Shown here: positions 4,851 through 38,207 of the stretch, piece by piece | Layout: the number at the start of each line of letters is the position of its first letter | Position numbering within the stretch: position 1 is the first letter of the stretch | Source: an uncultured Desulfobacterales bacterium | Lineage (GTDB): Bacteria; Desulfobacterota; DSM-4660; Desulfatiglandales; HGW-15 | Length of the DNA: 64,000 nucleotides | Direction of reading: 5' to 3' | Assembly (NCBI GenBank): GCA_964450535.1 | Contig: CAYVDE010000001.1 | Span: 50,567-114,566, forward strand | Made by a program: the position numbers and the translations under genes | Notes under the pieces: generated by a model | The model's input: only the letters and a program-made list of their open reading frames with translations | Databases searched by the model: none | Told to the model about the DNA's origin: nothing

Positions 4851-4867
4851 CAACCAAGGAGGACACC

Positions 4868-6457
4868 ATGTTCCGAGAGCACCATAATACCCTCGACATT
4901 CCCGACGCCCCGATCACCCGGCTTCTGGAAGATACTGCGGCCGGCCATCCTGATCATATCGCCGTTACTGTGGACGGCAGGGACATGACCTACGCCGAAC
5001 TGCTCGGGGCAAGCCGGGCCTTTGCTTTCGGTCTTCGAGCCCGGGGCGTCAATAATGGCGACAGGGTGGGCCTGATTCTCCCCAACCTCCCACAGTACGC
5101 CATTGCATTTTTCGGCATCCTTCAGGCCGGCGGAGTGGTAGTCAATCTAAGCGTCATGACGCCGGGCCAGTCCCTCAAGGGACTCCTTGCCCACTCCGGT
5201 GCCGAGATCGCCGTCACCGCCGACGTTTTCGCCCAACCACTCCTGGAAGCGGCGGAAGGAGACGGGCTTAGAAAGCTGATTCTCGTTTCGCTTTCAGGCC
5301 AAGACCCGCCCAAGAGAACAGGGGCCGATACGCTCGAATGCATCCCGTTCGAGGCCCTGTTTCAAAACCTTTCACCCGCGCCCCTCCCAACGGACATAAG
5401 AGGCCGTGACACAGCAGTCTTCCAGTACACCAGCGGCACCACGGGCCGTCCCAAAGCGGCGGTCCTGACTCACCGGAACCTCTTCGCCAACGTGCTCCAG
5501 ATAGACCGGGCCGTAAACGTTCCCGTGCCGGAAAACGGCGGCACAGTCTGCGTTATACCCTTCTTCCACGTGTTCGGCATGACTGTCTGTCTCCTTTCAA
5601 GCATTCACAAGGGATATAGAATGATTCTGGTTCCCAGGTTTGACTGGTCTTCCGTGCTCTCTCTCCTGGAAATCATCAAGACATACCGGCCCGTGTCCTT
5701 GCCCGCGGTGTCCTCCCTGTGGGCCGCGCTCGTTTCACACCCCGAGGCCGGAGACTATCCGCTCGACGCCGTAATAGTCCCCAGCGGGGGAGGCTCCCCC
5801 CTGCCTGCGTGGGTACAGGAGCGCTTCAAGGCCATGACCGGACGAAACATCATGGAGGCCTACGGGCTCTCAGAGGCGTCTTCCACCACCCACATCAATC
5901 CCCTTGACCGTGTGATCCCCGGAAGCATAGGCGTTCCGCTGCCCGGGACCGAGGCCCGCGTTGTCGACCTCGAGACCGGTGAGAGCCCTTGCCGCGAGGG
6001 AGAGATAGGGGAGTTGATCGTCCGCGGGCCCCAGGTCATGAAGGAATACTGGCTTGAACCTGAACTCACCGCCAAGGCGATTCGAAACGGATGGCTCTAC
6101 ACGGGCGATCTGGCCAGATCGGATCAGGAGGGGTATTTCTACGTGGTGGACAGAAAGGACGATCTCATAATTTCGAGCGGCTTCAACATCTATCCCACCG
6201 AGATCGAGGACCTGCTGATAAGCCATTCGGACATCAAGGCCGCGGCGGTGGTAGGTACGAAAGACAAGATCAGGGGACAGGTGGTGAAGGCCTTCGTAGT
6301 GCCTGAACCGGAAAAGAACCTGACGCGTGAGGATGTTCTTGCGTTCTGCCGGGCCAACCTGGCCGAGTTCAAGGTACCCAAGACTGTGGTTTTTACGGAA
6401 GATATCCCCCATGCACCCACGGGCAAGCCCATCAGGAGGGCGCTGAGGGGCGCTTAG
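4868..6457 (+). CDS. AMP-dependent acyl-CoA/acyl-ACP ligase (ApeH-like adenylating enzyme)
   Basis: AMP-binding motif FQYTSGTTGRPKAAVLTH, plus YTGDLA and PTGKPIRR. Start moved to ATG 4868, which has AAGGAGGA 5 nt upstream. Confidence 0.9.
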   Translation: MFREHHNTLDIPDAPITRLLEDTAAGHPDHIAVTVDGRDMTYAELLGASRAFAFGLRARGVNNGDRVGLILPNLPQYAIAFFGILQAGGVVVNLSVMTPGQSLKGLLAHSGAEIAVTADVFAQPLLEAAEGDGLRKLILVSLSGQDPPKRTGADTLECIPFEALFQNLSPAPLPTDIRGRDTAVFQYTSGTTGRPKAAVLTHRNLFANVLQIDRAVNVPVPENGGTVCVIPFFHVFGMTVCLLSSIHKGYRMILVPRFDWSSVLSLLEIIKTYRPVSLPAVSSLWAALVSHPEAGDYPLDAVIVPSGGGSPLPAWVQERFKAMTGRNIMEAYGLSEASSTTHINPLDRVIPGSIGVPLPGTEARVVDLETGESPCREGEIGELIVRGPQVMKEYWLEPELTAKAIRNGWLYTGDLARSDQEGYFYVVDRKDDLIISSGFNIYPTEIEDLLISHSDIKAAAVVGTKDKIRGQVVKAFVVPEPEKNLTREDVLAFCRANLAEFKVPKTVVFTEDIPHAPTGKPIRRALRGA

Positions 6458-6770: not shown

Positions 6771-7967
6771 CTATTTGGGGCGGGCCCTGCCCTCCCACGT
6801 GATCATAAAGGCCATGACAAAGACCACCCCGCCCACTGCAAGCCCCAGGATCGGCCCTACAAGCAAGGATCCGATGAGCCACTCGTAAATCCGCTCCAGT
6901 GCCTGGTACCCGAGGGTCTGAAGAGACACCTCCGTAAGGAAGCGGCCGTGCCTCATGAAGTACCCGGCCTCAATGCAGAGTGCCGGGACCAGGGGGGGCA
7001 TGCACAACTGGCTTGCCGCAACCGCCGCGATCCGGTTCAGGCGCATGAATCCCGCAGAAAAGAGGATGGCCACCGTGTGGAATCCGATGATGGGAAGGGC
7101 TCCCACAAAAACTCCCAGGGCGACCGCCGCGGCCAGCCTGCCGGGAGATGCGTCACCCTTCATCAGGACACGCAACGAACGGACGGGGTGCAGAATGGAC
7201 ACACCGGGTCCGCCATCTCCTGAGGCGCCGGGAAGCCTTGTGTGAGGCCGGGGAAGCATTGAACGCATGCTGAGTCTTGTGTTCAGCAGGGCCAGGCGGG
7301 TGTTATCCCGCAGCAGGCTGAAGTGGGAAACGTGCAGGTCTTTGGGGGGATAGACAACCGACACGTCGACATCTCGAACCTCCACCCCGGCCCATGCCGC
7401 CCTTACCAGCACCTCGATCTCAAATGCAAAACCCTTTTCCCGTAAAGGCAGGTGCATGAGGACGTCCAGGGGGTAGGCCCTGAAGCCGCTCTGGCTGTCT
7501 CCGATCTTGCGGCCGGTCTGGACGCGAAACCAGAAATTGGAAAACGCCCTTCCAAAACGCCTTGACAGAGGAGCGCCCGCGGCCTGAAAATCCCGCTTTC
7601 CCACCAGCAAGGCCTTCGGGTACTCCTCTATGGCAAGGAAAAAGCGGTCGATTTCAGCCGGATTGTGCTGACCGTCGGCGTCGAGGGTTATAATGTGGGT
7701 CACGCCCATTGAGTGCGCCTCTCGCGCCGCAGTGATAATAGCCTTCCCCTTTCCACGGTTTTTGTCGTGACGCACGACTCGAACCGGAAGTCCCACAAGG
7801 ACTCCGGCTCCTTGGTCCGTGCTCCCGTCATCCACCACAAGAACCCGGTCATGAGCCTTCAGGGCTCGCTCAACGACTTCCCGAAGGGTCGCCGAATGAT
7901 TGTAAACCGGGATTACGATCAGAATTTCCTTCATTGATGGCCGTGCCGTCCTTTCTGGTTGCCGCAT
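6771..7967 (-). CDS. family 2 glycosyltransferase fused to a polytopic membrane domain (DUF2062-like)
   Basis: VIPVYNH, VVDDGSTD and LDADGQH (DxD) in the N-terminal half. Hydrophobic C-terminal roughly 130 aa. An alternative start exists at 7934. Confidence 0.8.
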   Translation of the reverse strand: MRQPERTARPSMKEILIVIPVYNHSATLREVVERALKAHDRVLVVDDGSTDQGAGVLVGLPVRVVRHDKNRGKGKAIITAAREAHSMGVTHIITLDADGQHNPAEIDRFFLAIEEYPKALLVGKRDFQAAGAPLSRRFGRAFSNFWFRVQTGRKIGDSQSGFRAYPLDVLMHLPLREKGFAFEIEVLVRAAWAGVEVRDVDVSVVYPPKDLHVSHFSLLRDNTRLALLNTRLSMRSMLPRPHTRLPGASGDGGPGVSILHPVRSLRVLMKGDASPGRLAAAVALGVFVGALPIIGFHTVAILFSAGFMRLNRIAAVAASQLCMPPLVPALCIEAGYFMRHGRFLTEVSLQTLGYQALERIYEWLIGSLLVGPILGLAVGGVVFVMAFMITWEGRARPK

Positions 7968-8259
7968 CTATTCCCTACCCAAAAGGAAGAGGCTTTTCAA
8001 CTCTCTTGTACGAACCCCCCACCGCAAGATCGGTTGTCCCGAATTTCCCGCCCGCAAACCGTTCACTTCAATAAAGAACAAATTTGCCGTTGCTATACTC
8101 CTGAACAGCTGCCGGCTGTCGACATAACCGCGGCTCTCATACGGTTTGACGATGTTGCAATGAATAGGGTAAGATCTGCAACCCCGGATGACAATCAAAT
8201 GGTGATATGGTTTTCACCCGGTTTTGACGAGTCAATTACTTGGATCGCGGTTCCCGATT

Positions 8260-9129
8260 ATGAAGAGCTTCCTGGTGAATCTACTGCTCCGTACGAGCCG
8301 GCTGACAGGAGGTTGGTTTCTTCGAACAGTAGCCTACGTGATAACGGGGGGATACTTCCTGTTCAGGCCCAACCGGGTCCGGGCGGGCATGGGACTTTAC
8401 AGGGCCCTTTTCCCGGAGCGGGGTCGGGTCTTCCACCTTTACGCTGTGTGGCGGCAGTTTACGGATTTCACCGCCGCATACTGTGATCGCCTGGAACTGG
8501 AGCAGGGAAGAGAAATCCACAAGACTGAAGAGGGATGGTCCTTTCTCGAGGAAGCCGCCGAACAGGGGCGGGGGGGGATCCTGCTGGTGTCTCACTTCGG
8601 CAACCTGGAAATAGCGGCCAGGCTGCTGAGGCGTAAGGGCCTTCCGGCGCTCCTGTTAATGGGGGAAAGGGACCCCAGGCAGGTAGCCAGGCAACAGCGG
8701 GAGGCCATGAAAGAGGAGGGCCTGGACATCCTTCTCTCCTCTCCGGAAGGAGGGTCTCCCTTTGACGGGCTCGAAGCCCTTTATTACCTCAGGGACGGCG
8801 GATTCCTGGCAATGGCCGGTGATCTTGCCTGGCAGCCCAGGCCCAGGCTCGTGGAGGCCCCCTTCCTGGGAAAAACTATCCTGCTGCCGGAGGCCCCGCA
8901 TGCCCTCGCCCTGGTTACAGGGGTTCCTCTCTTCACGCTGTGGGTGTTTAGAAAAGAAAGGGCCTCCTATCATGTGGTGGTCTCAAAACCACGCTATGTG
9001 GAGGCCGCCTCTCGGAAAGAACGTGCGGAAGCGATTCGACGATCCGCTCTTCTATACGCCCAGGAGCTGGAAACGGCCTTGAAAAGCCACCCCTGGCAAT
9101 GGCATGTCTTTGAACCCGTATTAAAATAA
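8260..9129 (+). CDS. LpxL/HtrB-type lysophospholipid acyltransferase (ApeD-like)
   Basis: N-terminal TM segment and the acyltransferase motif LLVSHFGNLE. ATG 8260 chosen; the ORF also opens at TTG 8224. Confidence 0.7.
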   Translation: MKSFLVNLLLRTSRLTGGWFLRTVAYVITGGYFLFRPNRVRAGMGLYRALFPERGRVFHLYAVWRQFTDFTAAYCDRLELEQGREIHKTEEGWSFLEEAAEQGRGGILLVSHFGNLEIAARLLRRKGLPALLLMGERDPRQVARQQREAMKEEGLDILLSSPEGGSPFDGLEALYYLRDGGFLAMAGDLAWQPRPRLVEAPFLGKTILLPEAPHALALVTGVPLFTLWVFRKERASYHVVVSKPRYVEAASRKERAEAIRRSALLYAQELETALKSHPWQWHVFEPVLK

Positions 9130-9227: not shown

Positions 9228-11015
9228 GTGACCGCTACTATCAAGACCAATACGGCCAAAACGCCCGCACCTGGCGGCGGCCTTGGGGAAGGGATGGCCG
9301 AAGGCTGCCGGAGCGTGGTGATCTGGGCCGATGTCCTGGACCGGATCAATGTCTTTCCTGTGCCCGATGGAGATACCGGAAGGAACCTTGCCACAAGCCT
9401 GGCCCCTCTTCAGCATGACCTAACGGGTAAGGAAGAGCTGAAAACCCGCATCCTTGCATCCGCCCGCGGGAACTCGGGCAACATAGCGGCCCGGTTCTTC
9501 TGCGGCTTCCTGGAGGCCGAGAGCCCCCTGGGCCTTCCCGAGGCCTGTCGAAAAGGACGTGACCTGGCCTATGAGGCCTTAAAAAAACCTAAACAAGGCA
9601 CCATCCTCACCCTTTTCGACGCCCTGGTGGAGGCATTGGACAAGACCCCGCCGGGACAAAACGAGGCATGGGCATTAGGAGTGATCCGTCACCTCGAATC
9701 CGCGACCCTTGCCACACGGAACCAACTGCCCGAACTCAAGGCCGCAGGAGTGGTCGACGCAGGCGCCCTGGGCATGTTCCTCTTTTTCAGGACCTGTTTC
9801 CAGGTAATGACCGGTCGCGGCGATGACCCTGAAACCCTGCCGGCGCCGCTGAAGCCCTTTCTTCACACTGTCGAGATCTGGCGGGCTGATATGAGCGAGG
9901 GGTACTGCCTGGACGCCGTGATAAGATCCGCCGAACGGAACAAAGAGGCTGTCGAGGCCTTGTCTGACCTGGGGGACGACGCCATTGCCACGTCCCGCGG
10001 GGAAGTCCTCAAGGTCCACCTCCACACGAGGGATCGAGGGAGGGCGAGAGAGCAACTCGAGAAGATCGGAGAGGTCGTGGGCTGGGCCTCCGACGACCTG
10101 GCCTTGCAGACACGCCGGTTCGCCCGGCCCGCGATTCGCCAGGCCCTTCACATAGTCACGGACGCCGCCGGATCCATAGAGCGCCATCAGGCTTTGGGTC
10201 TTGGAATCACTCTGCTGGACAGCTACATTCTGATAGGTGATGAGAGCCTGCCTGAGACCTGCGTGGCCCCTGAGCATCTCATCTCGGCCATGCAGGCCGG
10301 GACCAAGGTGTCTACGTCCCAGGCCTCGACATGGGAACGGGGACGGGCCTATGCAAAGATCCTGGACCTGCATTCCCGAGCGCTCTACATGACCGTGGGC
10401 TCGTTTTACACGGGCAATCACGAGGCCGCAGTCGACTGGAAAGCCGACCATGACCCGGAGGACCGTCTCATTCTTCTGGATTCCGGGGTGGCCTCGGGCC
10501 ACCTGGGCCTTTCGGCCATGGCCGCGGCAAGGTTTTCCATGGTCGGAGGAGACCCGGAAGAGGTCGTGGGGTTCGCCCGCAAGGCCGTTGGCGCGTGCGG
10601 GGAGGTCCTGTTTTTGGACAAGCTCCAGTTCGTGGCGGCCGGCGGAAGGATGTCCAAGACAAGCGCCTTTTTCGGGGACATGCTCAACCTGAAGCCGGCG
10701 GTCAAGCCCACGCCGAAAGGGGCTGAGAAGGTGGCGGTCCTGAGGAACCGCAAGGACCAAATCGGCCTGGCCCTGAAGACCCTGGACAAAGGGCTCGCTC
10801 CAGGCAAAACGGCCGTCGTCATGGTGGAGCACACGAACAACCGTGAGTGGGTTGAATCCGAGTTGATCCCCATGATTAGAGGAAGATTTCCAGCGGCCTT
10901 TGTCTTTGCCCAGCAGATCTCGCTAACATCGGCCGCTCACATGGGACCCGGATCATGGGGAGTCGCTTTTCTGCAAGTGCCCGAACTTGAGCGAATGGAG
11001 CCCTTTTTCCCGTGA
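9228..11015 (+). CDS. DAK2 (FakA N-domain-like) fused to a DegV/FakB-like fatty-acid-binding domain
   Basis: DAK2: NVFPVPDGDTGRN and ARGNSGN. DegV: HIVTDAAGS, STSQAS, LDSGVASGHLG, AGGRMSKTSAFFGDMLNLKPAV, AAHMGPGSWGVAF. GTG start with RBS CAGGAGG. Confidence 0.75.
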   Translation: MTATIKTNTAKTPAPGGGLGEGMAEGCRSVVIWADVLDRINVFPVPDGDTGRNLATSLAPLQHDLTGKEELKTRILASARGNSGNIAARFFCGFLEAESPLGLPEACRKGRDLAYEALKKPKQGTILTLFDALVEALDKTPPGQNEAWALGVIRHLESATLATRNQLPELKAAGVVDAGALGMFLFFRTCFQVMTGRGDDPETLPAPLKPFLHTVEIWRADMSEGYCLDAVIRSAERNKEAVEALSDLGDDAIATSRGEVLKVHLHTRDRGRAREQLEKIGEVVGWASDDLALQTRRFARPAIRQALHIVTDAAGSIERHQALGLGITLLDSYILIGDESLPETCVAPEHLISAMQAGTKVSTSQASTWERGRAYAKILDLHSRALYMTVGSFYTGNHEAAVDWKADHDPEDRLILLDSGVASGHLGLSAMAAARFSMVGGDPEEVVGFARKAVGACGEVLFLDKLQFVAAGGRMSKTSAFFGDMLNLKPAVKPTPKGAEKVAVLRNRKDQIGLALKTLDKGLAPGKTAVVMVEHTNNREWVESELIPMIRGRFPAAFVFAQQISLTSAAHMGPGSWGVAFLQVPELERMEPFFP

Positions 11016-11767
11016 CGGACAAGACCATAAGGGCCCTCAAGGGACTGGGCATGGCCTTTATGTTCGGGACCTTCGGCCTGGGGATCTCAGTGTTCCTGTT
11101 CGGGGTGATTCCCGTGTCGTGGGTGTTGAACCGCGTTGCAGGGGAGAAACCCAGGGTGGAGAGGGCCGCACGTGTGGGGTTCGGGTGGTGGCTGGAATTC
11201 ATGGGCGTGCTGGGCCTGGTTCGGAGCGTTCCGTCCCGCGGTGTTGTCTTGCCCGGCCCTTGCGTTGTCGTGGCGAATCACCCCGGACTCTTCGACGTCC
11301 TGTTCCTGATAAGGGACATCCCGTCACTCTCGGTCCTGGTCAAGACCGGGCTGGCCAGGAAACTTCCTCTCGGCCCGGTGCTGAAGGCGCTCGAGTATGT
11401 GCTCGTACCGGATTATGACCACGTCAATCCACTGGACACAGCAGAGGAGACTCTCGAAAAAATCCAAAAGGGCCGTAAGGTGCTCCTGTTTCCGGAAGGC
11501 ACGCGTTCACCCTCCGGCTCGCTCCGGACCTTCCGGACCGGGGCCTTCAAGATCGCCCGCATGACCGGAGTCCCCATTCAGCCCGTGCTTGTTCGGAACA
11601 CCCCGCCCTTTATGCCCAAGGAAGAACCCTGGTACCTGCCTCCCCGGCGGACATCATTGCTGGAGTTGGAGTTCTGGGAACCCCTGCCTCCTCCGAAAAA
11701 GGGGGAGGAGCGGGACTTCGCCCGCCGCCTGGAGCAACGCTACCGGGAGGCGCTGGGGTCCGCCTGA
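11012..11767 (+). CDS. 1-acyl-sn-glycerol-3-phosphate acyltransferase family (PlsC-like)
   Basis: HX4D motif ANHPGLFD and FPEGTRS. The GTG start overlaps the upstream stop (GTGA). Confidence 0.85.
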   Translation: MTDKTIRALKGLGMAFMFGTFGLGISVFLFGVIPVSWVLNRVAGEKPRVERAARVGFGWWLEFMGVLGLVRSVPSRGVVLPGPCVVVANHPGLFDVLFLIRDIPSLSVLVKTGLARKLPLGPVLKALEYVLVPDYDHVNPLDTAEETLEKIQKGRKVLLFPEGTRSPSGSLRTFRTGAFKIARMTGVPIQPVLVRNTPPFMPKEEPWYLPPRRTSLLELEFWEPLPPPKKGEERDFARRLEQRYREALGSA

Positions 11768-13035
11768 GCCCCTGATGCCGTCTTTTTCCTGAACACCCTC
11801 TTCGCCCTGGGATTGTGACGCCGATAGGTCCCGTCCAGCATCTCCTTCTCGATCACTTTCATGAAGAGGTCCCCCATGCGGACCTCGTAAGGCCGTTCGG
11901 CGTAAAAGGTGTCCCAGGCATAATGAAACAGCTCTTCCAGTTTCTCCGGGCTCATGAGCCTGGGCTGGTACACCACTTTGTCGGCGGTGTAGTCAAGCCA
12001 GTTGTTGTTGAAAATGCGCCCTTCCTTCAACAGTTGCTCGCGGATCGGGGAGTGGGGAAACGGCGTCAGTATGGTGAACTCGGCCACGTCCAGGTCGATT
12101 TCAAAAAGGAAATCGATGAGACGCTTGAGGTAGTCTTCGTCGTGATAATCCAGACCCATCAGGATGGTCCCCTCCACTGAGATCCCGTGATCCTTGAGTC
12201 TTTGAATCCGCCGTCGCATGGCGTCGGTCATCTCGAAGATAGCCTGGTACACGTACCAGCAGCCCGCATCCGCGGCCAGCCTGAGTATCTCGTCATTGGA
12301 GAGCAGAGGATGCGACACCCACTTTTTCTTGAGGGGAATCATGGCTGTGAACAGCTCCCTGAGCCAGCGCTTGTCGTTGGCCAGGGAGTTGTCCACAATG
12401 AAGAGCCGGTTGTTGGGAATGGACTCCATCTCCTCGATGACCTTGTCAATGGGGCGGGGCCTGAACTTCCGGCCGCCCAGGAAAGCCACACAGCAAGGAT
12501 CGCAGTTGAACCTGCATCCCCTGGACGCGTGCACCAGGTCGAGCATCTGGACGCCCCGGTAGTTGTACAGGTCGCGGTCCAGGATATCCCGGCGGGCGGT
12601 CCCCACCAGCCGGATGTCGGGCATCTCCGCCGGGTAGTCATAGACCGGCTTCAGGCAGCCGGCGTCGAGGTCCTTCATTACCTCCTGAAACCGGCCTTCC
12701 ACCTCTCCCAGAAAGACGGAGTCGGCATGCAGGGCAACCTCCTCCGCGTGCAGCATGGTGGCGATCCCTCCGAAGATCACGGGGACCCCCATGGACCGGT
12801 ACGTGCCGGCCAGTTCGAACGCCCTCGGAAGCTGGCAGGTAAGCATCACGGAAAAGGCCGCCAGATCGAAAGAAGGGTCGAAAGTCATCTCCTCGAGATC
12901 CTCGTCCGTGAAGACGATTTCCACGTCATCGGGGACCTCCGCGGCGAATACCACGGGCCCGTGCGGGGGCAGGTGGAACTCCCTCTGCCTCTCGAGCTTC
13001 GGCCAACTTGGATATATCAGGTGCATCTTCTTCAT
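11740..13035 (-). CDS. B12-binding-domain radical SAM enzyme
   Basis: CX3CX2C cluster ASRGCRFNCDPCC, preceded by a B12-binding-like Rossmann region (VIFGGIATMLH). ATG 13035 overlaps the thioesterase stop (ATGA). Confidence 0.85.
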   Translation of the reverse strand: MKKMHLIYPSWPKLERQREFHLPPHGPVVFAAEVPDDVEIVFTDEDLEEMTFDPSFDLAAFSVMLTCQLPRAFELAGTYRSMGVPVIFGGIATMLHAEEVALHADSVFLGEVEGRFQEVMKDLDAGCLKPVYDYPAEMPDIRLVGTARRDILDRDLYNYRGVQMLDLVHASRGCRFNCDPCCVAFLGGRKFRPRPIDKVIEEMESIPNNRLFIVDNSLANDKRWLRELFTAMIPLKKKWVSHPLLSNDEILRLAADAGCWYVYQAIFEMTDAMRRRIQRLKDHGISVEGTILMGLDYHDEDYLKRLIDFLFEIDLDVAEFTILTPFPHSPIREQLLKEGRIFNNNWLDYTADKVVYQPRLMSPEKLEELFHYAWDTFYAERPYEVRMGDLFMKVIEKEMLDGTYRRHNPRAKRVFRKKTASGAQADPSASR

Positions 13036-13499
13036 GGTTTCATTAATTCCCCTTCCCTCCATCGCCTGAGAAAGTCCTCGAAAAACGGTGGAGGAAACAT
13101 GCACAGGTTGCGGTCCATGTCCAGCATCATCTGGACGGTGTATCCGGTGGTGGCCACCGCACCCTCTTGGTCACGGATGACGAAGGAATGGTTGATCCGC
13201 GCCGCCTCCGAGTAGTGAAGGGACGCCTCCACAACAACCTCCTCTTTGAGCTGAAGCGGTCTTTGGAAGTCCGTGTGCAGCCGCTTTATAGGCACTAAAA
13301 TGCCGTTATTGTAAAAATCCATGTACCCGATGCCGTGGCTCTCCCCCAGGGCGTCCCTGGCCTCCTCGAAATAACCGGCGTACCTGCCGTGCCACACAAT
13401 GCCTATGGAATCGACCTCTTCGAAACGCACCTTTCGACGAATCTCGGCACGAAGAGGCGGAGGGTCCCCCTCTCGCATGTGAAAGTATGGCTTCATCAT
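13032..13499 (-). CDS. 4HBT/YbgC-type hotdog thioesterase (ApeK-like)
   Basis: VRFEEVDSIGIVWHGRYAGYFEEAR. Start trimmed to MMKPYF at 13499, which overlaps the dehydratase stop (ATGA). Confidence 0.8.
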   Translation of the reverse strand: MMKPYFHMREGDPPPLRAEIRRKVRFEEVDSIGIVWHGRYAGYFEEARDALGESHGIGYMDFYNNGILVPIKRLHTDFQRPLQLKEEVVVEASLHYSEAARINHSFVIRDQEGAVATTGYTVQMMLDMDRNLCMFPPPFFEDFLRRWREGELMKP

Positions 13500-13885
13500 G
13501 GGTCGCCTTCCTCGATACCAGGGGTGAGAGTGAACGAAGACGCAGGTTCCCCTCGTGCGAACACCCGGGCCTCTATTCCCGTTCCCCCCTCCAACTCCTT
13601 CATCACACAACGGATCTCGACTTCATCGCCGGGCCCTATGGGAAGAGTGAACTTGGCTTTGTCCACCGAAACGGTCGCATCGCCCAAGCCTTGCCAGACC
13701 TCCCCGGCCACTTGCATGGCGGCCATTATCTGCACCACTGCGGGCAGAAGGGGCCGCCCGGGAAAGTGTCCCCTGAATCCGGCGAAGCCTTCATCAAAGC
13801 GATATCGTCCCACGGCCGCGCCTGTTTCGTCCAGAAAAGGCTTTGAAACAACGGCCGATCGAACGGCCTGTCTCAGCTTCTCCAT
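13496..13885 (-). CDS. FabZ-like hotdog dehydratase (ApeI-like)
   Basis: FRGHFPGRPLLPAVVQIMAAMQ resembles the FabZ active-site region. 129 aa. Confidence 0.7.
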   Translation of the reverse strand: MEKLRQAVRSAVVSKPFLDETGAAVGRYRFDEGFAGFRGHFPGRPLLPAVVQIMAAMQVAGEVWQGLGDATVSVDKAKFTLPIGPGDEVEIRCVMKELEGGTGIEARVFARGEPASSFTLTPGIEEGDP

Positions 13886-13889: not shown

Positions 13890-16283
13890 TCACTTCCCGA
13901 GCCCGCTCTGAAAGGCCGGAATCACCAGCAGGGCCGATGGCACGGCCGCGCCAATACCCAAAAGCACGGTGACTCCTATGGTGTGGAGGGCCGGGTGCCC
14001 GGCCAGGACCAGGGCGCCGAATGCGGCCAGGGTCGTCAGCCCGGACACCAGCACCGCCTTTTCCGTTCCAAGCCCGCCTTCTCCGTTCTTGTGCATAACC
14101 ATGAAGACACCATAGTCCACTCCGAGACCTATAATCAAGACCGCCGCCACCATGCTGAAAACATTCAGGGGAATTCCCAGCAAGGCCATTCCGCCCATGG
14201 CCGCTACAAGGCCTGTACACACCGGGACCAGGGCCGCGCCCATTCGAAACACGCTGCAAAGAAGGATCCCGAGCAGCACGAGGACCATAACGGCCGCGCC
14301 CAGGATGAATAAGAGAAAATCGCGTCCCAGGGCGAGGCTTATCATGTCCCCGAATACGGACGGTGAGATGACACCGATCCGGGGCATGTCGCGGAACACC
14401 TCGGTCAGCTGGGTTTTCAGGTCCGGAGAATCGGGTACCAGGCTTACGACTTTGACGCCCCCATCAGATTGCAGCACAAAGCCTTCCATGATCTCTTCCA
14501 GCCCCGCACCGGCCAGGTCCTCTGCTCCCACTTCATCCGCTCCAGAAACGATCCACTTAAAGAACGGGGCGAACGCGCCCTTTGAAAAACCCAGGTCCGC
14601 ACCCGCCTCCTGCAAGGCCGCCCGGATCTGCGAGACCCGGGGTTCCGACCAGAACGCGGCCCAGCGTCGCCGGTTTTCCTCTTGCTTCAAAGGGGAAGGC
14701 AGCAGAGGGGCCAGGCTCATTATATCGGAGGCCGGCACTACGGTCTTCAGCCTCTCATACACCAGGTCATTCACCGGAAGGGCCGAGTCAAGGTCCTCGC
14801 CCTCGGCTACAACGAGCGCCCTTCCCAGAAGCCCTCCCCAGTTCCGGGTCAAGCGGTCTTCCTGTTCCCTGATTTCCGCCGGGGCCTTGCTCATCTTGCG
14901 GAGGTCCCCTTCAAACTCCAGTCCGGCGGCCTGCCATCCCATAAAGACAAGGACCCCCGCCCAGACCCATACGATCCACCGGGGCCGGCGGCCAATAGGC
15001 ATGGAAGCCCGGGCCGTGTCTTTCCGGAGAGGACGGATCCCCTGGGGAAGCACGATCAATGAGATGATCAGGGCGCAGGCCATGCCGATCAGGGAAAACA
15101 CTCCAAGCTGCCGCTGAGCCGGAATGGTGCTGAGCAGGAGCACGCTGAAGGCCGCCATGCTGGTCAGCCCTGCGAAGAGGACCGGGACTCCTACCCGGCC
15201 CGTGATCTCCGCGGCCCGGCCCCTTCCTGCCCGGCGAAGGGCGAAGTAGACGTGGATCCCGAAATCGATTGAAATACCCAGCAGCACTGCCCCGAAACCG
15301 AGAGTGACGGCGGAAACAGGCTTATAAATCAGAGAGGTTCCAGCAACGGCCACAAGAAGCGTGGAAGCGGGGACCAGCAGGATGAAGAGCCCGTTCACGG
15401 ACCGGACGAAAACCAAAAACAGGAGGATCAGGGCGACCGAGGAGAGGGAAAGGACCAGGAACAGGTCCCTGCGCACAGTATCGGCATTTGCCACGCTATA
15501 CAGGTGCCCGCTGTAGAGGGAGGCCGTCATCTGAGGCGGAAGATCCCCGGCCAGTCTCCGGAAACCGTCAATCAGCGCCTTCCCTCCTTCCGGATCGGTC
15601 ATGGGCACCTCCGTCTCGGCGATGATAAGCGTGTTGCGGCCGTCCCTGCTGACAAAGTGCCCGTCCGTGATGCGGACATCCGGTATCGGGCTCACGGCCC
15701 GCATTTTCTCGAAGGCGATAAGTCTAAGTCCCAGGGGGTCCCGGCTCTCCATCATCCTGCCTCCCCATCCTTCAGGGGAGGCCAGGCCGCGCAGAATCCC
15801 CTCGAGCCTGGCCCTCACCCGATCCGGATCCAGTAACTCGAGCGCGCGCAACCGGTCTTTCTCCGTGAAAAGGCTGGGCAACGCGTCCATCAGAAAATCA
15901 GGCAGCCCTTCTCCCCCTTCCACCGGGGGACCGGTCATCACCCGGGTGAACAGGGGCGGCTTCATAGCACCTGCCAGGCTGTCCGCCGCCCTTACAAGGG
16001 CCCCGATCGGAACCTCCTGTTCGGCGCTCACCTGAATGAGGAGCTTGCCTGAAAGAGGCGACTCCTGAAGGAACCTGAAATGCCTTGCCGCCTCGGAGGG
16101 TTCCTCGGGGATCATGGAGCGAATGTCTTCATCGACCCTCATGGCCTGAAGAGCCGCCAGAGAAGCAATCCAGAGGAAGAGCACAAGGGCCGCCAAGATA
16201 CGGCGGCGCGTGGTGAAGAAAACGAAGAGGAAGGAGAAAAGGGAGGAGGTCTTGAGGTGTCGAGGTGTTGAGGTTCTAATCAC
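13890..16283 (-). CDS. MMPL/RND-superfamily predicted exporter (ApeM-like)
   Basis: About 800 aa with two blocks of multiple TM helices separated by large soluble loops. The start is uncertain: GTG 16283 is proposed, while the ORF opens at 16370 inside the LolA-like gene. Confidence 0.8.
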   Translation of the reverse strand: MIRTSTPRHLKTSSLFSFLFVFFTTRRRILAALVLFLWIASLAALQAMRVDEDIRSMIPEEPSEAARHFRFLQESPLSGKLLIQVSAEQEVPIGALVRAADSLAGAMKPPLFTRVMTGPPVEGGEGLPDFLMDALPSLFTEKDRLRALELLDPDRVRARLEGILRGLASPEGWGGRMMESRDPLGLRLIAFEKMRAVSPIPDVRITDGHFVSRDGRNTLIIAETEVPMTDPEGGKALIDGFRRLAGDLPPQMTASLYSGHLYSVANADTVRRDLFLVLSLSSVALILLFLVFVRSVNGLFILLVPASTLLVAVAGTSLIYKPVSAVTLGFGAVLLGISIDFGIHVYFALRRAGRGRAAEITGRVGVPVLFAGLTSMAAFSVLLLSTIPAQRQLGVFSLIGMACALIISLIVLPQGIRPLRKDTARASMPIGRRPRWIVWVWAGVLVFMGWQAAGLEFEGDLRKMSKAPAEIREQEDRLTRNWGGLLGRALVVAEGEDLDSALPVNDLVYERLKTVVPASDIMSLAPLLPSPLKQEENRRRWAAFWSEPRVSQIRAALQEAGADLGFSKGAFAPFFKWIVSGADEVGAEDLAGAGLEEIMEGFVLQSDGGVKVVSLVPDSPDLKTQLTEVFRDMPRIGVISPSVFGDMISLALGRDFLLFILGAAVMVLVLLGILLCSVFRMGAALVPVCTGLVAAMGGMALLGIPLNVFSMVAAVLIIGLGVDYGVFMVMHKNGEGGLGTEKAVLVSGLTTLAAFGALVLAGHPALHTIGVTVLLGIGAAVPSALLVIPAFQSGLGK
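16252..16275. repeat. 3 x TYGAGGTG octamer
   Basis: ttgaggtg tcgaggtg ttgaggtt, at the LolA-like/MMPL junction. Confidence 0.7.
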
Positions 16284-16926
16284 TTTGGACCCGGACGTTT
16301 GAAAAGGTGATGACCATGCGGTCCCCGTTCGTTTCGCGGATCTCGATCGATTCCAGGTGATCCAAATCACGGGAAAAAGTCACGAGCATACGGTCCAGGC
16401 GTTCAGCCGCGGCCTCGGACCTGGGTTCCAGTTCCAATCGGATTGGCGAGCGGCTCAGAACGGACATTTCGAACCTCTCACCAAGCCAGTCAAAGTCCGC
16501 CCGGACCCATGCCAGGAGCTGCTCCATGAAGTGCCTGATGCCCGTCTCGGCACCGGGCGGCGCTCCTTCTTTTGAATCACCCGAGCCCCGCCAGGTCCTG
16601 AGTCGATCCCCTTCCGCTGAAAAGCCGAACCGCTCCGGCGAGAGGACCTCCCAGTGAACAAAACCCGGGGCCTCGTAACGAAAGAGCCCGCTGGAACGAA
16701 GCGGTTCTTCCAGCATGCCCGTGTGGCTCTCCTGGATAAACTCGCTCTCAATGGCGACGATCCCGCTGAAGGCATCGGATATACGTCTCAGGACATCTTC
16801 ATCGGACCCTGACTCGATCCCTGCGGAAGCGAAACGATCTTGAACCCACAAGGGGCCGGTGGCAATCAAAACCAATGCGATAAGGAGGGCCGGACAGACT
16901 TTCATTTCGAGGACGCCCCTGGTCAT
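16276..16926 (-). CDS. LolA-like outer-membrane lipoprotein carrier protein (ApeL-like)
   Basis: Signal peptide MKVCPALLIALVLIA and a LolA-like FIQESHTGMLEEPLRSSGLFRYEAPGFVHWEV. ATG 16926 overlaps the upstream stop (ATGA). Confidence 0.65.
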   Translation of the reverse strand: MTRGVLEMKVCPALLIALVLIATGPLWVQDRFASAGIESGSDEDVLRRISDAFSGIVAIESEFIQESHTGMLEEPLRSSGLFRYEAPGFVHWEVLSPERFGFSAEGDRLRTWRGSGDSKEGAPPGAETGIRHFMEQLLAWVRADFDWLGERFEMSVLSRSPIRLELEPRSEAAAERLDRMLVTFSRDLDHLESIEIRETNGDRMVITFSNVRVQSD

Positions 16927-17384
16927 GACGGGCTCCAGACCTTTATTTCGGCCCATGCTATATCTCTCCCTGACCGTGCCACGGCCCCCTGTGCCACGGA
17001 AAAGTCTCCAAACGATTTCTCGGTTCCGACGGTCACGACCAGTCGATCCCCGGCAGAGGCGCTTCCAGCCGTCCTCCCCTTTTTGATTCCAACCAGGTAC
17101 CCGCCGCGCACCGGCCGGCCGTTTATGAGGTTTTCGTAGCCTTTTACGGCGGCATAGGCCTGGGCTATCATTTCGAAGAAGGCCGGCGGGTCCACTCTGC
17201 CCTTTTCCGTCAGGATAAACCCGTCCTCACCAACCACGGCCTCCACAACCCCGCGGCCCGCCACAGGATCGCACTTCATGAGCCGGTCCACCAGACGCAT
17301 GGGCGGCCTGTGGGGTATTATCCTGTCCGCCGAAATTGGAAGACAGCTTACCAGCCGCATTTCTCCCTCAACAGCTATAATCAC
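16923..17384 (-). CDS. FabA/FabZ-like hotdog dehydratase (ApeP-like)
   Basis: IIPHRPPMRLVDRL motif. 153 aa. The start overlaps the ACP stop (ATGA). Confidence 0.7.
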   Translation of the reverse strand: MIIAVEGEMRLVSCLPISADRIIPHRPPMRLVDRLMKCDPVAGRGVVEAVVGEDGFILTEKGRVDPPAFFEMIAQAYAAVKGYENLINGRPVRGGYLVGIKKGRTAGSASAGDRLVVTVGTEKSFGDFSVAQGAVARSGRDIAWAEIKVWSPS

Positions 17385-17641
17385 AACATCCCCAACTCCT
17401 TCGCTTTATTGATCACAAACCGGTGTATGTCTTCAAGTGTGCGGATCTTCCGTATCTCCTCTTCGTCCCTGATCTTTATCTTGAAGGCATGTTCAAGGGC
17501 GATCACCATGTCCACCATGTCCAGGCTGTCGAGGCCCAGGTCATCGAACAGCGTGGCCTCGGGCACCATATCCGCCCTATCCAGCTCGAATTCCTCAGCC
17601 AGAGACGCATCGACACGTTCGATGATCTCCTGCTCAGTCAT
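17381..17641 (-). CDS. acyl carrier protein
   Basis: LGLDSLDMVDMVIALE phosphopantetheine site. 86 aa. Confidence 0.9.
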   Translation of the reverse strand: MTEQEIIERVDASLAEEFELDRADMVPEATLFDDLGLDSLDMVDMVIALEHAFKIKIRDEEEIRKIRTLEDIHRFVINKAKELGML

Positions 17642-20182: not shown

Positions 20183-20950
20183 TCAACCCATGTACATCCC
20201 GCCGTTCACGGACAGGACCTGGCCGGTAATGTAGGAGGCCGCGTCCGAGCACAGGAACCTCACCGCCTCGGCCACCTCTTCGGGTTTGCCGAGCCTTCCT
20301 GCGGGAATCATGGGAAGAATGGTGTCCATGGGCAGGTCCCCGGTCATCCCTGTCTCAATGAATCCGGGGGCCACTGCATTAACCAGGATATTACGGCCGG
20401 CCACTTCCCGTGCCAGCGTCCTGGTGGCCCCGATGAGCCCGGCCTTGGCCGCTGAGTAGTTCACCTGACCGGGCAGGCCCATGAGCCCGGATGTGGATGT
20501 GATGTTTATGATCCGGCCTTCACGCCTGCCGAGCATGGGACGGAGGACAAGCTTGGTCACGTGGAAAAACCCGTCAAGGTTCACGGCCAGTACCTCTTTC
20601 CACTCCTCGTTACTCATCCAGACCATGAGGGAGTCCCGGGTCAGCCCCGCGTTGTTGACCAGGACAAAGGGAGTTTCCAGATCGAGAAGCGGGTCCAGTC
20701 GTTCATGAGCCTCATCAGGGTCAGTCACATCAAAAGGTACGAGGCGGCATACCTTGCCTGTTTCCCGAATCCTCCCGGCCGTCTGCCCCGCAGCCTCATG
20801 ATCCCGCCGGAAATTGAGCCATATGTCGAACCCGTCTCTTGCAAGGGCAAGGGCCACGGCGGCGCCGATACCCCTTCCCCCGCCGGTCACAAGGGCGATC
20901 CTGGGGCCGTCTCGCCGGCCTTTTTCAGCTTTCTTCCGAGTTCTACTCAC
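20183..20950 (-). CDS. fabG: 3-oxoacyl-ACP reductase (SDR, FabG-like; ApeQ-like)
   Basis: VTGGGRGIGAAVA Rossmann motif and YSAAKAGL (YxxxK). Confidence 0.9.
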   Translation of the reverse strand: MSRTRKKAEKGRRDGPRIALVTGGGRGIGAAVALALARDGFDIWLNFRRDHEAAGQTAGRIRETGKVCRLVPFDVTDPDEAHERLDPLLDLETPFVLVNNAGLTRDSLMVWMSNEEWKEVLAVNLDGFFHVTKLVLRPMLGRREGRIINITSTSGLMGLPGQVNYSAAKAGLIGATRTLAREVAGRNILVNAVAPGFIETGMTGDLPMDTILPMIPAGRLGKPEEVAEAVRFLCSDAASYITGQVLSVNGGMYMG

Positions 20951-21617: not shown

Positions 21618-21630
21618 TTTGATTTCCTTT

Positions 21631-34320: not shown

Positions 34321-34350
34321 TTCGTCCTCCTTGTATCATTGCTGTTAAGC

Positions 34351-35535: not shown

Positions 35536-35611
35536 GGCGTTTCCTCCTTGCAGTTACTGCTCTCAGTTATCAGGGGCCGGGTTCCTCCCCTGTTCTTTAC
35601 TCATCCGTCAT

Positions 35612-38145: not shown

Positions 38146-38207
38146 CAAAAATCTAACACACGCCGTTTTCCCAAGTCAACTGTTTTTAGGAAAAGGGGGA
38201 AAGGGCC

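What the first reader, a model, noticed from the sequence alone, without database searches (positions are those of the whole stretch)
11740..13035. B12-binding radical SAM enzyme translationally coupled to the cluster thioesterase
Seen: the CX3CX2C motif (CRFNCDPCC) follows a B12-binding-like N-domain. The ATG overlaps the thioesterase stop (ATGA at 13032-13035), and this is the last gene of the 10-gene operon. Established: B12-dependent radical SAM enzymes perform C-methylation or C-C bond formation at unactivated carbons, including on lipids (hopanoid methylases, tetraether and membrane-spanning lipid synthases). Inference: the enzyme tailors the acyl or polyene chain, by methyl branching or cross-linking. 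That step is not in my recollection of described APE pathways.
Basis: partly seen in the sequence, partly recalled or inferred. Interest (0 to 1): 0.65.

Follow-up and report, generated by a model that had tools for sequence, protein, structure and literature searches.

The report
Conserved radical SAM enzyme of polyene-lipid clusters
This gene encodes an uncharacterised radical SAM enzyme with a vitamin-B12-binding-like front domain; it is the best-conserved gene of a lipid-making gene cluster found in many oxygen-avoiding bacteria, so it very probably modifies that lipid, but nobody yet knows how.

Summary
Window 11740-13035 (-) encodes a 431-aa protein with an invariant CX3CX2C motif. It has a Rossmann-like N-domain carrying the SxL and GG motifs of B12-binding domains. 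Its ATG overlaps the thioesterase stop (ATGA), and it is the last of 10 co-directional genes.

It belongs to a tight orthologous family that I call rSAM1. The family has more than 6,000 clusters and stays 61-71% identical across Desulfobacterota, Nitrospirota, Acidobacteriota and Planctomycetota. No curated family model captures it.

Of 49 related loci with long flanks, 48 have a ketosynthase nearby, 44 the thioesterase and 39 the MMPL exporter. rSAM1 is the most conserved protein of the cluster.

Canonical clusters add a KS/CLF pair, tyrosine ammonia-lyase, an aryl-CoA ligase and one or two further B12-type radical SAM genes (TIGR04072 and an HpnJ/BchE-like one). The window carries a reduced, aryl-less variant in which rSAM1 is the only radical SAM gene.

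Radical SAM genes in such clusters have been noted since 2009 (the "ladderane-like" clusters of Kuenenia, Desulfotalea and Geobacter), and their function is still unknown. The closest solved structure is AprD4, which works without B12, so B12 dependence and methylation remain unproven. Verdict: a real, dedicated tailoring enzyme and a member of a recognised but uncharacterised kind. Interest is moderate.

The parts
11740..13035 (-). rSAM1 gene, 431 aa: radical SAM enzyme with a B12-binding-like N-domain
   Evidence: Translation. More than 6,000 homologues. AlphaFold model pLDDT 94. Foldseek matches to AprD4, MgmA, TsrM and CysS.
12631..13035 (-). N-terminal Rossmann-like (B12-binding-like) domain, residues about 1-135
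   Evidence: Pfam PF02310 24.7 bits, below cut-off. Alternating strands and helices in the model. N-domain profile gives weak hits mostly to cobalamin-binding domains, with SxL and GG in register with MetH. Matches the N-domain of the MCR glutamine methylase MgmA.
12490..12516 (-). CRFNCDPCC: the CX3CX2C motif that binds the [4Fe-4S] cluster (C174, C178, C181)
   Evidence: Read directly. Invariant in 150 homologues.
12001..12543 (-). Radical SAM TIM-barrel core, residues about 165-345
   Evidence: Pfam PF04055 at residues 171-309. Profile alignment to AprD4 over query positions 129-364. Alternating strands and helices in the model.
11743..12000 (-). C-terminal helical domain with a conserved basic tail (DGTYRRxNPR..R.F)
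   Evidence: Helices 363-377 and 383-401 in the model. Conserved columns. Some homologues carry a precomputed PF13282 (DUF4070) hit.
13032..13035 (-). ATGA: rSAM1 start codon overlapping the thioesterase stop codon
   Evidence: Not conserved in L002.
13032..13499 (-). 4HBT/YbgC-type thioesterase, 155 aa from the ATG at 13499
   Evidence: PF13279 58.4 bits. The ATG at 13499 overlaps the TGA of the upstream ORF. Found upstream of rSAM1 in 44 of 49 loci.
13496..13885 (-). ApeI-like hot-dog dehydratase, 129 aa
   Evidence: PF22818 29.5 bits, above the 28.5 cut-off.
13890..16370 (-). MMPL/HAE3-type RND exporter
   Evidence: PF03176; TIGR00921 and HpnN-like hits.
16276..16956 (-). LolA-like lipid carrier
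   Evidence: PF03548; weak hit to the flexirubin LolA2 model.
16923..17384 (-). FabZ/ApeP-like dehydratase
   Evidence: Weak FabZ NCBIfam hits. ApeP-like E 0.078.
17381..17641 (-). Acyl carrier protein
   Evidence: PF00550.
17634..18869 (-). Beta-ketoacyl-ACP synthase (PRK09116-like), Cys-His-His triad intact
18903..20138 (-). Beta-ketoacyl-ACP synthase (FabB-like), Cys-His-His triad intact
20183..20950 (-). 3-oxoacyl-ACP reductase (similar to FlxB and FabG), first gene of the run
   Evidence: A promoter-like site lies at 20995-20966, but the promoter count is not above chance.
11012..11767 (+). PlsC-type acyltransferase, convergent; its 3' end overlaps the rSAM1 3' end by 28 bp
   Evidence: PF01553.
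9228..11015 (+). Fatty-acid kinase fusion (FakA Dak2 domain plus DegV/FakB)
   Evidence: The same fusion sits in sister-clade clusters L081 and L082.
8224..9129 (+). LpxL-like lipid acyltransferase
   Evidence: PF03279.
6771..7967 (-). GT2 glycosyltransferase fused to DUF2062
   Evidence: Found downstream of the rSAM genes in 37 of 49 loci.
4817..6457 (+). FadD-type AMP-dependent ligase, a candidate starter-loading enzyme
   Evidence: PF00501 284 bits. Its membership of the cluster is inferred from adjacency only.

Best explanation
The gene encodes a working radical SAM enzyme (rSAM1) that is a dedicated tailoring enzyme of an APE-like type II FAS/PKS lipid cluster, the kind that antiSMASH's 'ladderane' class was derived from.

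Shown:
- One CX3CX2C [4Fe-4S] site and no second conserved Cys cluster.
- A three-part fold: Rossmann-like N-domain, TIM barrel, helical C-domain.
- Tight orthology across phyla.
- Conserved position in the cluster, usually TE-KS-CLF-rSAM1-(rSAM2)-(rSAM3)-GT2.

Inferred pathway:
- A FadD-type ligase loads a non-aryl starter onto the ACP.
- Two active ketosynthases, the ketoreductase and two hot-dog dehydratases extend it. The run encodes no enoyl reductase, so the product would be an unsaturated or polyene acyl-ACP.
- rSAM1 cleaves SAM reductively to a 5'-deoxyadenosyl radical and functionalises an otherwise unreactive carbon of this chain.
- The thioesterase releases the acid. FakA/DegV, PlsC and the LpxL-like acyltransferase attach it to a lipid anchor. 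The GT2-DUF2062 protein decorates it, and MMPL with LolA exports it.

Chemistry: my best single guess is cobalamin-assisted C-methylation (class B type). I give that specific step only about 0.3-0.35.

rSAM1 persists in clusters that lack the aryl-starter genes, the KS/CLF pair and the other two radical SAM genes. Its target is therefore a part common to all variants (chain or anchor), not the aryl head.
For: Radical SAM identity: motif and alignment; model pLDDT 94; structural matches to radical SAM enzymes with N-terminal Rossmann domains.

Orthologous family with a sharp boundary: in a 1.84-billion-protein library clustered at 50% identity there are only two full-length representatives (60% and 47% identical), then a drop to about 35% paralogues.

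Co-conservation in 49 loci with long flanks: KS 48, TE 44, CLF 43, rSAM2 42, MMPL 39, GT2 37.

rSAM1 is the most conserved cluster protein. Median identity to the window protein is 67%, against TE 51%, GT2 53%, MMPL 38% and LolA 31%.

The sister clade (44-50% identical) sits in the same type of cluster, with ApeI/ApeP-like dehydratases, KS, ACP, FakA-DegV, PlsC and GT2.

The window lacks rSAM2, rSAM3, TAL, aryl-CoA ligase and CLF. The same reduced layout is kept in L001 and L002 at about 85% nucleotide identity.

The N-domain keeps B12-domain motifs and matches the N-domain of the MCR glutamine methylase MgmA.

A paralogue is fused to an MMPL transporter (P0223), which links this enzyme type to exported membrane lipids.
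Against: - There is no biochemical evidence for any member. Of the comparable Kuenenia enzymes, Kuste3342 and Kuste3343 could not even be detected when expressed in E. coli (PMC4790861).
- The best solved relative is AprD4 (TM 0.77; profile E 9.4e-12), a 1,2-diol dehydratase acting on an aminosugar. To my knowledge it does not use cobalamin.
- Pfam B12-binding is below its cut-off.
- No curated methylase family is matched: HpnP/HpnR, the PhpK family and TsrM-type models all score far below cut-off.
- The related loci were collected by searching for rSAM1 itself. The counts say that rSAM1 implies the cluster, not that the cluster implies rSAM1.
- The ATGA coupling to the thioesterase is not conserved.
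Confidence: 0.55

Rival explanations
1. rSAM1 works without cobalamin, like AprD4. It performs a radical dehydration, ring contraction or rearrangement on the polar head group (the sugar or polyol installed by the GT2-DUF2062 protein) rather than on the acyl chain. This would parallel the hopanoid set HpnI (GT2), HpnJ (radical SAM) and HpnN (MMPL).
For: AprD4 is the top structural hit (TM 0.77) and the top profile hit (E 9.4e-12). HpnJ is among the best NCBIfam hits over residues 168-406. The GT2-DUF2062 gene follows the rSAM genes in 37 of 49 loci, and the MMPL gene's best named relatives include HpnN. HpnJ is proposed to contract the glucosamine ring of a hopanoid (PMC13459092, section 3.2).
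Against: Identity to AprD4 is only 16-17%, and the AprD4 N-domain does not align with this one (domain E 3.4e2), whereas the N-domain of MgmA does. The AprD4 and HpnJ family models score 23 and 46 bits against cut-offs of 500 and 578. In the window the GT2 gene is in a different transcription unit.
Confidence: 0.2
2. rSAM1 forms a carbon-carbon bond in or between polyunsaturated acyl chains (cyclisation or cross-linking). This is the type of chemistry proposed for ladderane formation and shown for the membrane-spanning lipid synthases Tes and Mss.
For: Clusters of this type, with radical SAM genes, were noted in the ladderane producer Kuenenia (PMC2649909). The run encodes no enoyl reductase, so a reactive polyene is plausible. 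Radical SAM enzymes do couple inert lipid carbons (PMC13459092).
Against: The family is spread across many phyla not known to make ladderanes. Desulfotalea, which has such a cluster, made no ladderanes (PMC2649909). Only one Fe-S motif is conserved. No Tes-like structure appears among the 50 listed structural neighbours or among the profile hits.
Confidence: 0.13
3. rSAM1 modifies a protein of the pathway, for example by methylating the ACP or a synthase, rather than the lipid.
For: The N-domain's best solved sequence match is MgmA, a methylase acting on a protein glutamine. The very high conservation could reflect a protein-protein interface.
Against: No particular partner protein is invariably adjacent. 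The ACP is detected within the flanks in only 17 of 49 loci. No precedent is known to me in FAS or PKS systems.
Confidence: 0.05
4. The gene is unrelated to the cluster and only happens to lie next to it.
For: One homologue (L018) sits away from any such cluster.
Against: Position and strand are conserved relative to TE, KS, MMPL and GT2 across several phyla. The sister clade lies in the same cluster type.
Confidence: 0.02

Closest known systems
'SAM radical enzymes' of the FASII-like clusters shared by Kuenenia stuttgartiensis (Kuste3342/3343), Desulfotalea psychrophila (DP1853/1855), Geobacter and Pelobacter (Rattray et al. 2009, PMC2649909). antiSMASH's 'ladderane lipids' cluster class cites this paper.
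   Same: Same cluster type: extra FabF-like KSs, ACP, FabZ-like DH, FabG-like KR, glycosyltransferase and a phenylacetyl-CoA-ligase-like gene. In Desulforhopalus (L082, which I place in the same family as Desulfotalea from memory) the rSAM1 sister-clade gene is followed directly by a 455-aa AMP-binding-domain protein, as Kuste3343 is followed by the ligase Kuste3344 (PMC4790861). Function unknown in both cases.
   Different: One-to-one orthology with Kuste3343 or DP1855 is inferred from gene order only; I could not retrieve those sequences. The window cluster lacks the amino-oxidase (phytoene-desaturase-like) gene, the aryl-type ligase and the second radical SAM gene.
TIGR04072, 'lipid biosynthesis B12-binding/radical SAM protein' (rSAM_ladder_B12)
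   Same: Same domain architecture. It is encoded immediately downstream of rSAM1 in canonical clusters (L023 11254-12630, 684 bits) and is present in 42 of 49 loci.
   Different: A different family. The window protein scores 41 bits against a cut-off of 360. The window contains no TIGR04072 member.
AprD4, radical SAM 1,2-diol dehydratase of apramycin biosynthesis (PDB 6fd2)
   Same: Best structural match (TM 0.74-0.77) and best sequence-profile match (E 9.4e-12) over the core and C-domain. Same three-domain layout.
   Different: 16-17% identity. The AprD4 family model scores 23 bits against a cut-off of 500. The N-domains do not align. AprD4's substrate is an aminoglycoside and its context is unrelated.
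Cobalamin-dependent (class B) radical SAM enzymes: MgmA (9ccb), TsrM (6wte), CysS (9n1d); the lipid-related HpnP/HpnR methylases; HpnJ and BchE
   Same: N-terminal Rossmann-like domain with SxL and GG motifs followed by a GE.EG segment, then the CX3CX2C barrel.
   Different: Every curated family model scores far below its cut-off: HpnJ 46 vs 578, BchE 37 vs 481, HpnR 29 vs 650, MgmA 32 vs 360. Cobalamin binding has not been tested.
Characterised aryl-polyene (APE), flexirubin and xanthomonadin clusters
   Same: ApeI- and ApeP-like dehydratases, two or more KSs, KR (299 bits to the flexirubin FlxB model, cut-off 340), ACP, 4HBT thioesterase, LolA-like and MMPL proteins, GT2 and acyltransferase genes.
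   Different: To my knowledge those characterised clusters contain no radical SAM gene. The window cluster in turn has no ammonia-lyase, aryl-CoA ligase or chain-length factor.

Membership tests
Radical SAM superfamily | CX3CX2C motif that binds the [4Fe-4S] cluster | tested here: met
   C174, C178 and C181 are present and invariant in 150 homologues.
Radical SAM superfamily | Partial or full TIM-barrel core resembling solved radical SAM enzymes | tested here: met
   Model pLDDT 94. Foldseek probability 1.0 to AprD4, MgmA, TsrM, MiaB, CysS, biotin synthase and HydE. Pfam PF04055 alone is below its cut-off (23.2 vs 29.5).
Radical SAM superfamily | Reductive cleavage of SAM to a 5'-deoxyadenosyl radical | not testable with these tools
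   Needs purified, reconstituted enzyme.
Class B (cobalamin-dependent) radical SAM enzymes | N-terminal Rossmann-like B12-binding domain | tested here: met
   Fold seen in the model. SxL and GG motifs in register with MetH, and 8 of 11 weak N-domain hits are cobalamin-binding domains. Aligns to the MgmA N-domain. Pfam PF02310 is 24.7 bits, below the 32.1 cut-off, so the domain is divergent.
Class B (cobalamin-dependent) radical SAM enzymes | Cobalamin actually bound and required | not testable with these tools
   AprD4, the closest solved relative, has such a domain yet to my knowledge works without cobalamin (for the similarity). No cobalamin riboswitch lies in the window, which is uninformative.
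TIGR04072 lipid biosynthesis B12-binding/radical SAM protein | Score at or above the curated cut-off of 360 bits | tested here: not met
   41.4 bits. The true member is the downstream neighbour in canonical loci (684 bits).
HpnJ, HpnR (and HpnP-type) and BchE | Score at or above the curated equivalog cut-offs | tested here: not met
   HpnJ 46.1 vs 577.6; HpnR 29 vs 650; BchE 37 vs 481.
AprD4 family diol dehydratases | Score at or above the curated cut-off of 500 bits | tested here: not met
   23.2 bits, although AprD4 is the best structural neighbour.
Tes and Mss membrane-spanning lipid synthases | Sequence or fold similarity to the solved tetraether synthase | tested here: inconclusive
   No such entry is among the 50 listed structural neighbours or among the profile hits at E <= 0.01. 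I did not compare directly with named Tes or Mss sequences.
Aryl-polyene (APE) type gene cluster | Type II KS(s), KR, ApeI/ApeP-type dehydratases, ACP, thioesterase, LolA-like and MMPL export genes, GT and acyltransferase genes | tested here: met
Aryl-polyene (APE) type gene cluster | Aryl starter supply (ammonia-lyase and/or aryl-acid ligase) and a KS/CLF pair | tested here: not met
   No TAL, aryl-CoA ligase or CLF homologue anywhere in the 64-kb window. Both KSs keep the catalytic Cys. Canonical relatives such as L023 do have these genes.

The most novel reading that the evidence does not exclude
rSAM1 is the founding enzyme of a widespread, unrecognised modification of non-isoprenoid (ketoacyl-derived) lipids in anaerobes. 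It would be a radical C-C bond-forming or C-methylating step on a polyenoyl chain, yielding a lipid class not yet described. [quoted passage not shown] The window's minimal cluster, with rSAM1 as the only radical SAM gene, would be the simplest system in which to find the product.
Probability: 0.2. Interest if true: 0.8.

Novelty: new member of a known kind. Interest (0 to 1): 0.5.

Why it matters
Gene clusters of this type are reported in non-anammox anaerobes of several phyla (Desulfobacterota, Planctomycetota, Verrucomicrobiota and others), where they are expressed and routinely labelled 'ladderane' with no known product (PMC9902471). rSAM1 is their most conserved protein, yet it has no curated family model and no assigned reaction. 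Working out its chemistry would add a radical SAM reaction on acyl-type lipids, a field so far almost confined to isoprenoid lipids. It would also clarify what these 'ladderane' annotations really encode and could explain unassigned lipid biomarkers from anoxic sediments. The reduced cluster in this window narrows the problem. It shows that rSAM1 does not need the aryl starter, the KS/CLF pair or the two other radical SAM enzymes.

Tried and rejected
- Single-sequence AlphaFold run: useless (pLDDT 36). Repeated with a 150-sequence alignment.
- Rfam scan of the whole window for a cobalamin riboswitch or any other RNA: nothing.
- Promoter and terminator scan: counts not above chance. The terminator-like hairpin at 13868-13853 lies inside the ApeI-like ORF and was dismissed.
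- Literature searches for aryl polyene plus cobalamin-dependent radical SAM, and for TIGR04072 or the locus tags: only the 2009 and 2016 ladderane papers came up. A search pairing aryl polyene with Geobacter, Desulfovibrio and similar genera returned nothing relevant. The Geobacter bemidjiensis genome paper does not mention the cluster.
- GTG 13104 as the start codon: rejected, because homologues start at the ATG.
- TTG 13610 as the thioesterase start: rejected in favour of ATG 13499.
- One KS as a chain-length factor: rejected, because both keep Cys-His-His.
- Filing the protein under TIGR04072, HpnJ, HpnR, BchE or AprD4: rejected on curated cut-offs.
Full report

Yes. On the minus strand an ORF runs from the ATG at 13035 to the stop at 11740-11742 (431 aa). 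The sequence around the start is ...aaaccATGAagaag.... The ATG (13035-13033) therefore shares two bases with the TGA (13034-13032) that ends the upstream thioesterase ORF.

An in-frame GTG at 13104 is not the start. Twenty-eight homologues all begin MK(M)xLIYP, at the position of the ATG.

The protein contains SRGCRFNCDPCCV, that is C174-x3-C178-x2-C181. These three cysteines are invariant in a 150-sequence alignment that spans 41-94% identity. No other cysteine is invariant there, so there is no sign of an auxiliary Fe-S cluster.

**2. Domain architecture**

Pfam sees B12-binding (24.7 bits, cut-off 32.1) and Radical_SAM (23.2 bits, cut-off 29.5). Both are below threshold, so the sequence is divergent.

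A single-sequence structure prediction failed. With the 150-sequence alignment AlphaFold gave pLDDT 94 and pTM 0.91. The model has three parts:
- an N-terminal alpha/beta (Rossmann-like) domain, residues about 1-135;
- a TIM-barrel core, about 165-345;
- a helical C-terminal domain.

Foldseek against the PDB ranks the neighbours as follows:

| Solved structure | TM-score (query-normalised) | Identity |
|---|---|---|
| AprD4 (6fd2) | 0.74-0.77 | 16-17% |
| MCR glutamine methylase MgmA (9ccb) | 0.63 | 15% |
| TsrM (6wte/6wtf) | 0.62-0.67 | 14-16% |
| MiaB | 0.55-0.60 | 11-13% |
| CysS (9n1b-9n1d) | 0.58-0.63 | 14-15% |

A family profile searched against PDB sequences hits AprD4 over the core and C-domain (E 9.4e-12). 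It hits MgmA over the N-domain, profile positions 55-205 (E 1.8e-5).

A profile of the N-domain alone gives only weak hits (E 0.07-1.2). Eight of the eleven are cobalamin-binding domains: MetH, B12-dependent mutase small subunits and a cobalamin-binding protein. The alignment puts DLVGISvmLT on MetH DLIGLSGLIT, and vLGG on LIGG. These are the SxL and GG motifs.

So 'B12-binding-like N-domain' is correct. Whether cobalamin is actually bound cannot be decided here. AprD4, the nearest solved relative, carries such a domain but, to my knowledge, does not use cobalamin.

**3. Which family?**

No curated family captures the protein. The best NCBIfam scores are all far below their cut-offs:

| Model | Score (bits) | Cut-off (bits) |
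|---|---|---|
| TIGR04013 | 46.5 | 251 |
| HpnJ | 46.1 | 578 |
| TIGR04072 | 41.4 | 360 |
| BchE | 37 | 481 |
| MgmA family | 32 | 360 |
| HpnR | 29 | 650 |
| AprD4 family | 23 | 500 |

The protein nevertheless has a very large and very tight set of orthologues.
- There are more than 6,000 hits at E <= 1e-5, and the best 120 are 68-94% identical.
- In a library of 1.84 billion representatives clustered at 50% identity, only two full-length representatives are close (60% and 47% identical). The scores then drop to about 35% identity, roughly 230 bits and below.
- Members come from Desulfobacterota (Desulfatiglandales, Syntrophus, Geobacter, Desulfuromonas, Desulfobacteraceae), Nitrospirota/Thermodesulfovibrionia, Acidobacteriota (Holophaga), Planctomycetota, Verrucomicrobiota and Kiritimatiellia.

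I call this family rSAM1.

**4. Genomic context in the window**

The ten co-directional genes on the minus strand are:
- KR (20183-20950);
- two ketosynthases (18903-20138 and 17634-18869), both with an intact Cys-His-His triad;
- ACP (17381-17641);
- a FabZ/ApeP-like dehydratase (16923-17384);
- LolA-like carrier (16276-16956);
- MMPL exporter (13890-16370);
- an ApeI-like dehydratase (13496-13885; PF22818 29.5 bits against a cut-off of 28.5);
- a 4HBT thioesterase (13032-13499), whose ATG also overlaps the preceding TGA;
- rSAM1.

These assignments come unless noted. None of the ten genes gave an enoyl-reductase assignment.

Converging on rSAM1 are an LpxL-like acyltransferase, a FakA-DegV fatty-acid kinase fusion and a PlsC acyltransferase. 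Further on lie a GT2-DUF2062 glycosyltransferase, a FadD-type ligase and an APH-like kinase.

This is the gene set of an aryl-polyene-type cluster. However, the 64-kb window holds no ammonia-lyase, aryl-CoA ligase, chain-length factor or further radical SAM gene.

**5. Co-conservation**

I fetched 80 loci that encode rSAM1 relatives and mapped the window proteins onto them, together with the proteins of a canonical locus.

The canonical layout is seen in Desulfuromusa kysingii DSM 7343 (L023):
- aryl-CoA ligase (FlxY-like) and tyrosine ammonia-lyase;
- DH, LolA, MMPL, a LolB-like protein, an ApeI-like DH and TE;
- KS and CLF;
- rSAM1;
- rSAM2, a true TIGR04072 member (684 bits);
- rSAM3, HpnJ/BchE-like;
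- a GT2-DUF2062-LpxL fusion, then ACP and two KSs.

Among the 49 loci with at least 8 kb upstream and 5 kb downstream, the counts are:

| Gene | Loci (of 49) |
|---|---|
| KS | 48 |
| TE | 44 |
| CLF | 43 |
| rSAM2 | 42 |
| MMPL | 39 |
| DH | 39 |
| LolA | 38 |
| GT2 | 37 |
| rSAM3 | 28 |
| aryl-CoA ligase | 23 |
| TAL | 17 |

Several combinations of radical SAM genes occur:
- all three (Desulfuromonadales, Geobacter);
- rSAM1 plus rSAM2 (Nitrospirota);
- rSAM1 plus rSAM3 (for example L026, L032, L039);
- rSAM1 alone (the window, L001, L002, L055).

rSAM1 is the most conserved protein of the cluster. Median identity to the window protein is 67%, against 51% for TE, 53% for GT2, 38% for MMPL and 31% for LolA.

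The sister clade, 44-50% identical, sits in the same cluster type. Its clusters include the FakA-DegV fusion, PlsC, GT2, an LpxL-like gene and an amino-oxidase.

The window's reduced layout is shared with two Desulfatiglandales/Desulfobacterales MAGs (L001, L002) at about 85% nucleotide identity. It is therefore a stable variant, not an assembly accident.

One caveat applies to all these counts. The loci were selected through rSAM1. The data show that rSAM1 comes with the cluster, not that every such cluster has rSAM1.

**6. What is already known**

Rattray et al. 2009 (PMC2649909) described FASII-like clusters with 'SAM radical enzymes'. Kuste3342/3343 are homologous to DP1853/1855, and similar clusters occur in Kuenenia, Desulfotalea, Geobacter and Pelobacter. 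No ladderanes were found in Desulfotalea.

antiSMASH 3.0 added a 'ladderane lipids' cluster class citing that paper (PMC4489286). Such clusters are now reported, and expressed, in many non-anammox phyla with unknown function (PMC9902471).

Expression of kuste3342/3343 in E. coli gave no detectable protein (PMC4790861).

The association is therefore known. The enzyme's reaction is not, and the rSAM1 family itself has no curated model.

That rSAM1 corresponds to Kuste3343/DP1855 is my inference from gene order. In Desulforhopalus (L082) the rSAM1-type gene is followed by a 455-aa AMP-binding-domain protein, as Kuste3343 is followed by the ligase gene Kuste3344.

**7. Mechanism**

Shown: a single [4Fe-4S]/SAM site, the class-B-like architecture and dedicated membership of the cluster.

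Inferred: the enzyme generates a 5'-deoxyadenosyl radical and functionalises an unreactive carbon of the cluster's lipid. rSAM1 persists without the aryl genes, the KS/CLF pair, rSAM2 and rSAM3. Its target must therefore be common to all variants, either the growing or released unsaturated chain or the anchor.

My best single guess is cobalamin-assisted C-methylation (about 0.3-0.35). Two things support it: the N-domain keeps B12-domain motifs, and it aligns with the N-domain of the MCR glutamine methylase MgmA.

The main rival (about 0.2) is cobalamin-independent chemistry on the glycosyl or polyol head, in the manner of AprD4 or HpnJ. It rests on the AprD4 similarity and on the parallel between GT2, radical SAM and MMPL here and HpnI, HpnJ and HpnN in hopanoid biosynthesis.

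C-C coupling or cyclisation (about 0.13) and protein modification (about 0.05) are not excluded.

A paralogue fused to an MMPL transporter (P0223) supports action on exported membrane lipids.

**8. Verdict**

The specific chemistry and the B12 dependence remain open.

The gene is a new member of a recognised but uncharacterised kind. The useful new points are these:
- rSAM1 is a distinct, uncurated family. It is not TIGR04072.
- It is the most conserved protein of the cluster, and it occurs here without the other two radical SAM genes.
- This window holds a natural minimal cluster, aryl-less and with a single radical SAM gene, that would simplify finding the product.

Noticed in passing
window 13496-13885 (-) and 13496-13499: A 129-aa ApeI-like dehydratase ORF fills the apparent gap between the MMPL gene and the thioesterase. 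Its TGA overlaps the thioesterase ATG at 13499, a second ATGA junction. The 192-aa thioesterase ORF starting at TTG 13610 is therefore over-extended.
   Followed up: yes
window 9228-11767 (+); L081 17577-20569; L082 12632-14398: A FakA(Dak2)-DegV fatty-acid kinase fusion recurs in these clusters, next to a PlsC-type acyltransferase in the window and in L081 and in both rSAM1 clades. This suggests that the acid released by the thioesterase is re-activated as an acyl-phosphate before being attached to a lipid anchor.
   Followed up: partly
protein P0223 (1210 aa; domains): A paralogue about 34% identical to rSAM1 is fused to the C-terminus of an HAE3/MMPL transporter. This Rosetta-stone-type fusion links this kind of radical SAM enzyme to lipid export.
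   Followed up: partly
window 11740-11767: The convergent PlsC gene and rSAM1 overlap by 28 bp at their 3' ends, and no terminator-like hairpin was found between them.
   Followed up: partly
L002 9884-10001; L001 around 6001: In the two closest relatives the thioesterase ends about 114 nt before the rSAM1 start. The ATGA overlap in the window comes from a C-terminal extension of the thioesterase and is specific to this genome.
   Followed up: yes
L020 6677-7243 and 11263-11934 (Phycisphaerales MAG): The cluster looks partly decayed. There is only a 188-aa MMPL-like fragment, and a 223-aa ORF with only a B12-binding domain follows an intact rSAM1.
   Followed up: partly
L018 9917-13049 (Acidobacteria MAG): An rSAM1 homologue (68% identical) lies outside any lipid cluster. 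It sits next to a different radical SAM gene (zinc-ribbon HMPTM type) and a PHP-domain gene. This is either a stray copy or a binning or assembly artefact.
   Followed up: partly
L023 11254-14078 and most Desulfuromonadales/Geobacter loci: Canonical clusters carry three consecutive B12-type radical SAM genes with overlapping or abutting reading frames: rSAM1, a TIGR04072 member and an HpnJ/BchE-like gene. Nitrospirota loci carry only the first two.
   Followed up: yes
window 21051-22479 (-): A flavin-reductase-like gene and a class II aldolase-like gene lie directly upstream of the KR gene, and both are syntenic in L002 (80-82% identity). A promoter-like site separates them from KR. Whether they belong to the pathway is open.
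   Followed up: no
window 32521-38146 (-): A beta-oxidation set (acyl-CoA dehydrogenase, thiolase, fused 3-hydroxyacyl-CoA dehydrogenase/enoyl-CoA hydratase) lies about 12 kb from the cluster. The rest of the window holds housekeeping genes, c-di-GMP signalling genes and polysaccharide genes. No Rfam family, and so no cobalamin riboswitch, was found anywhere in the 64 kb.
   Followed up: partly
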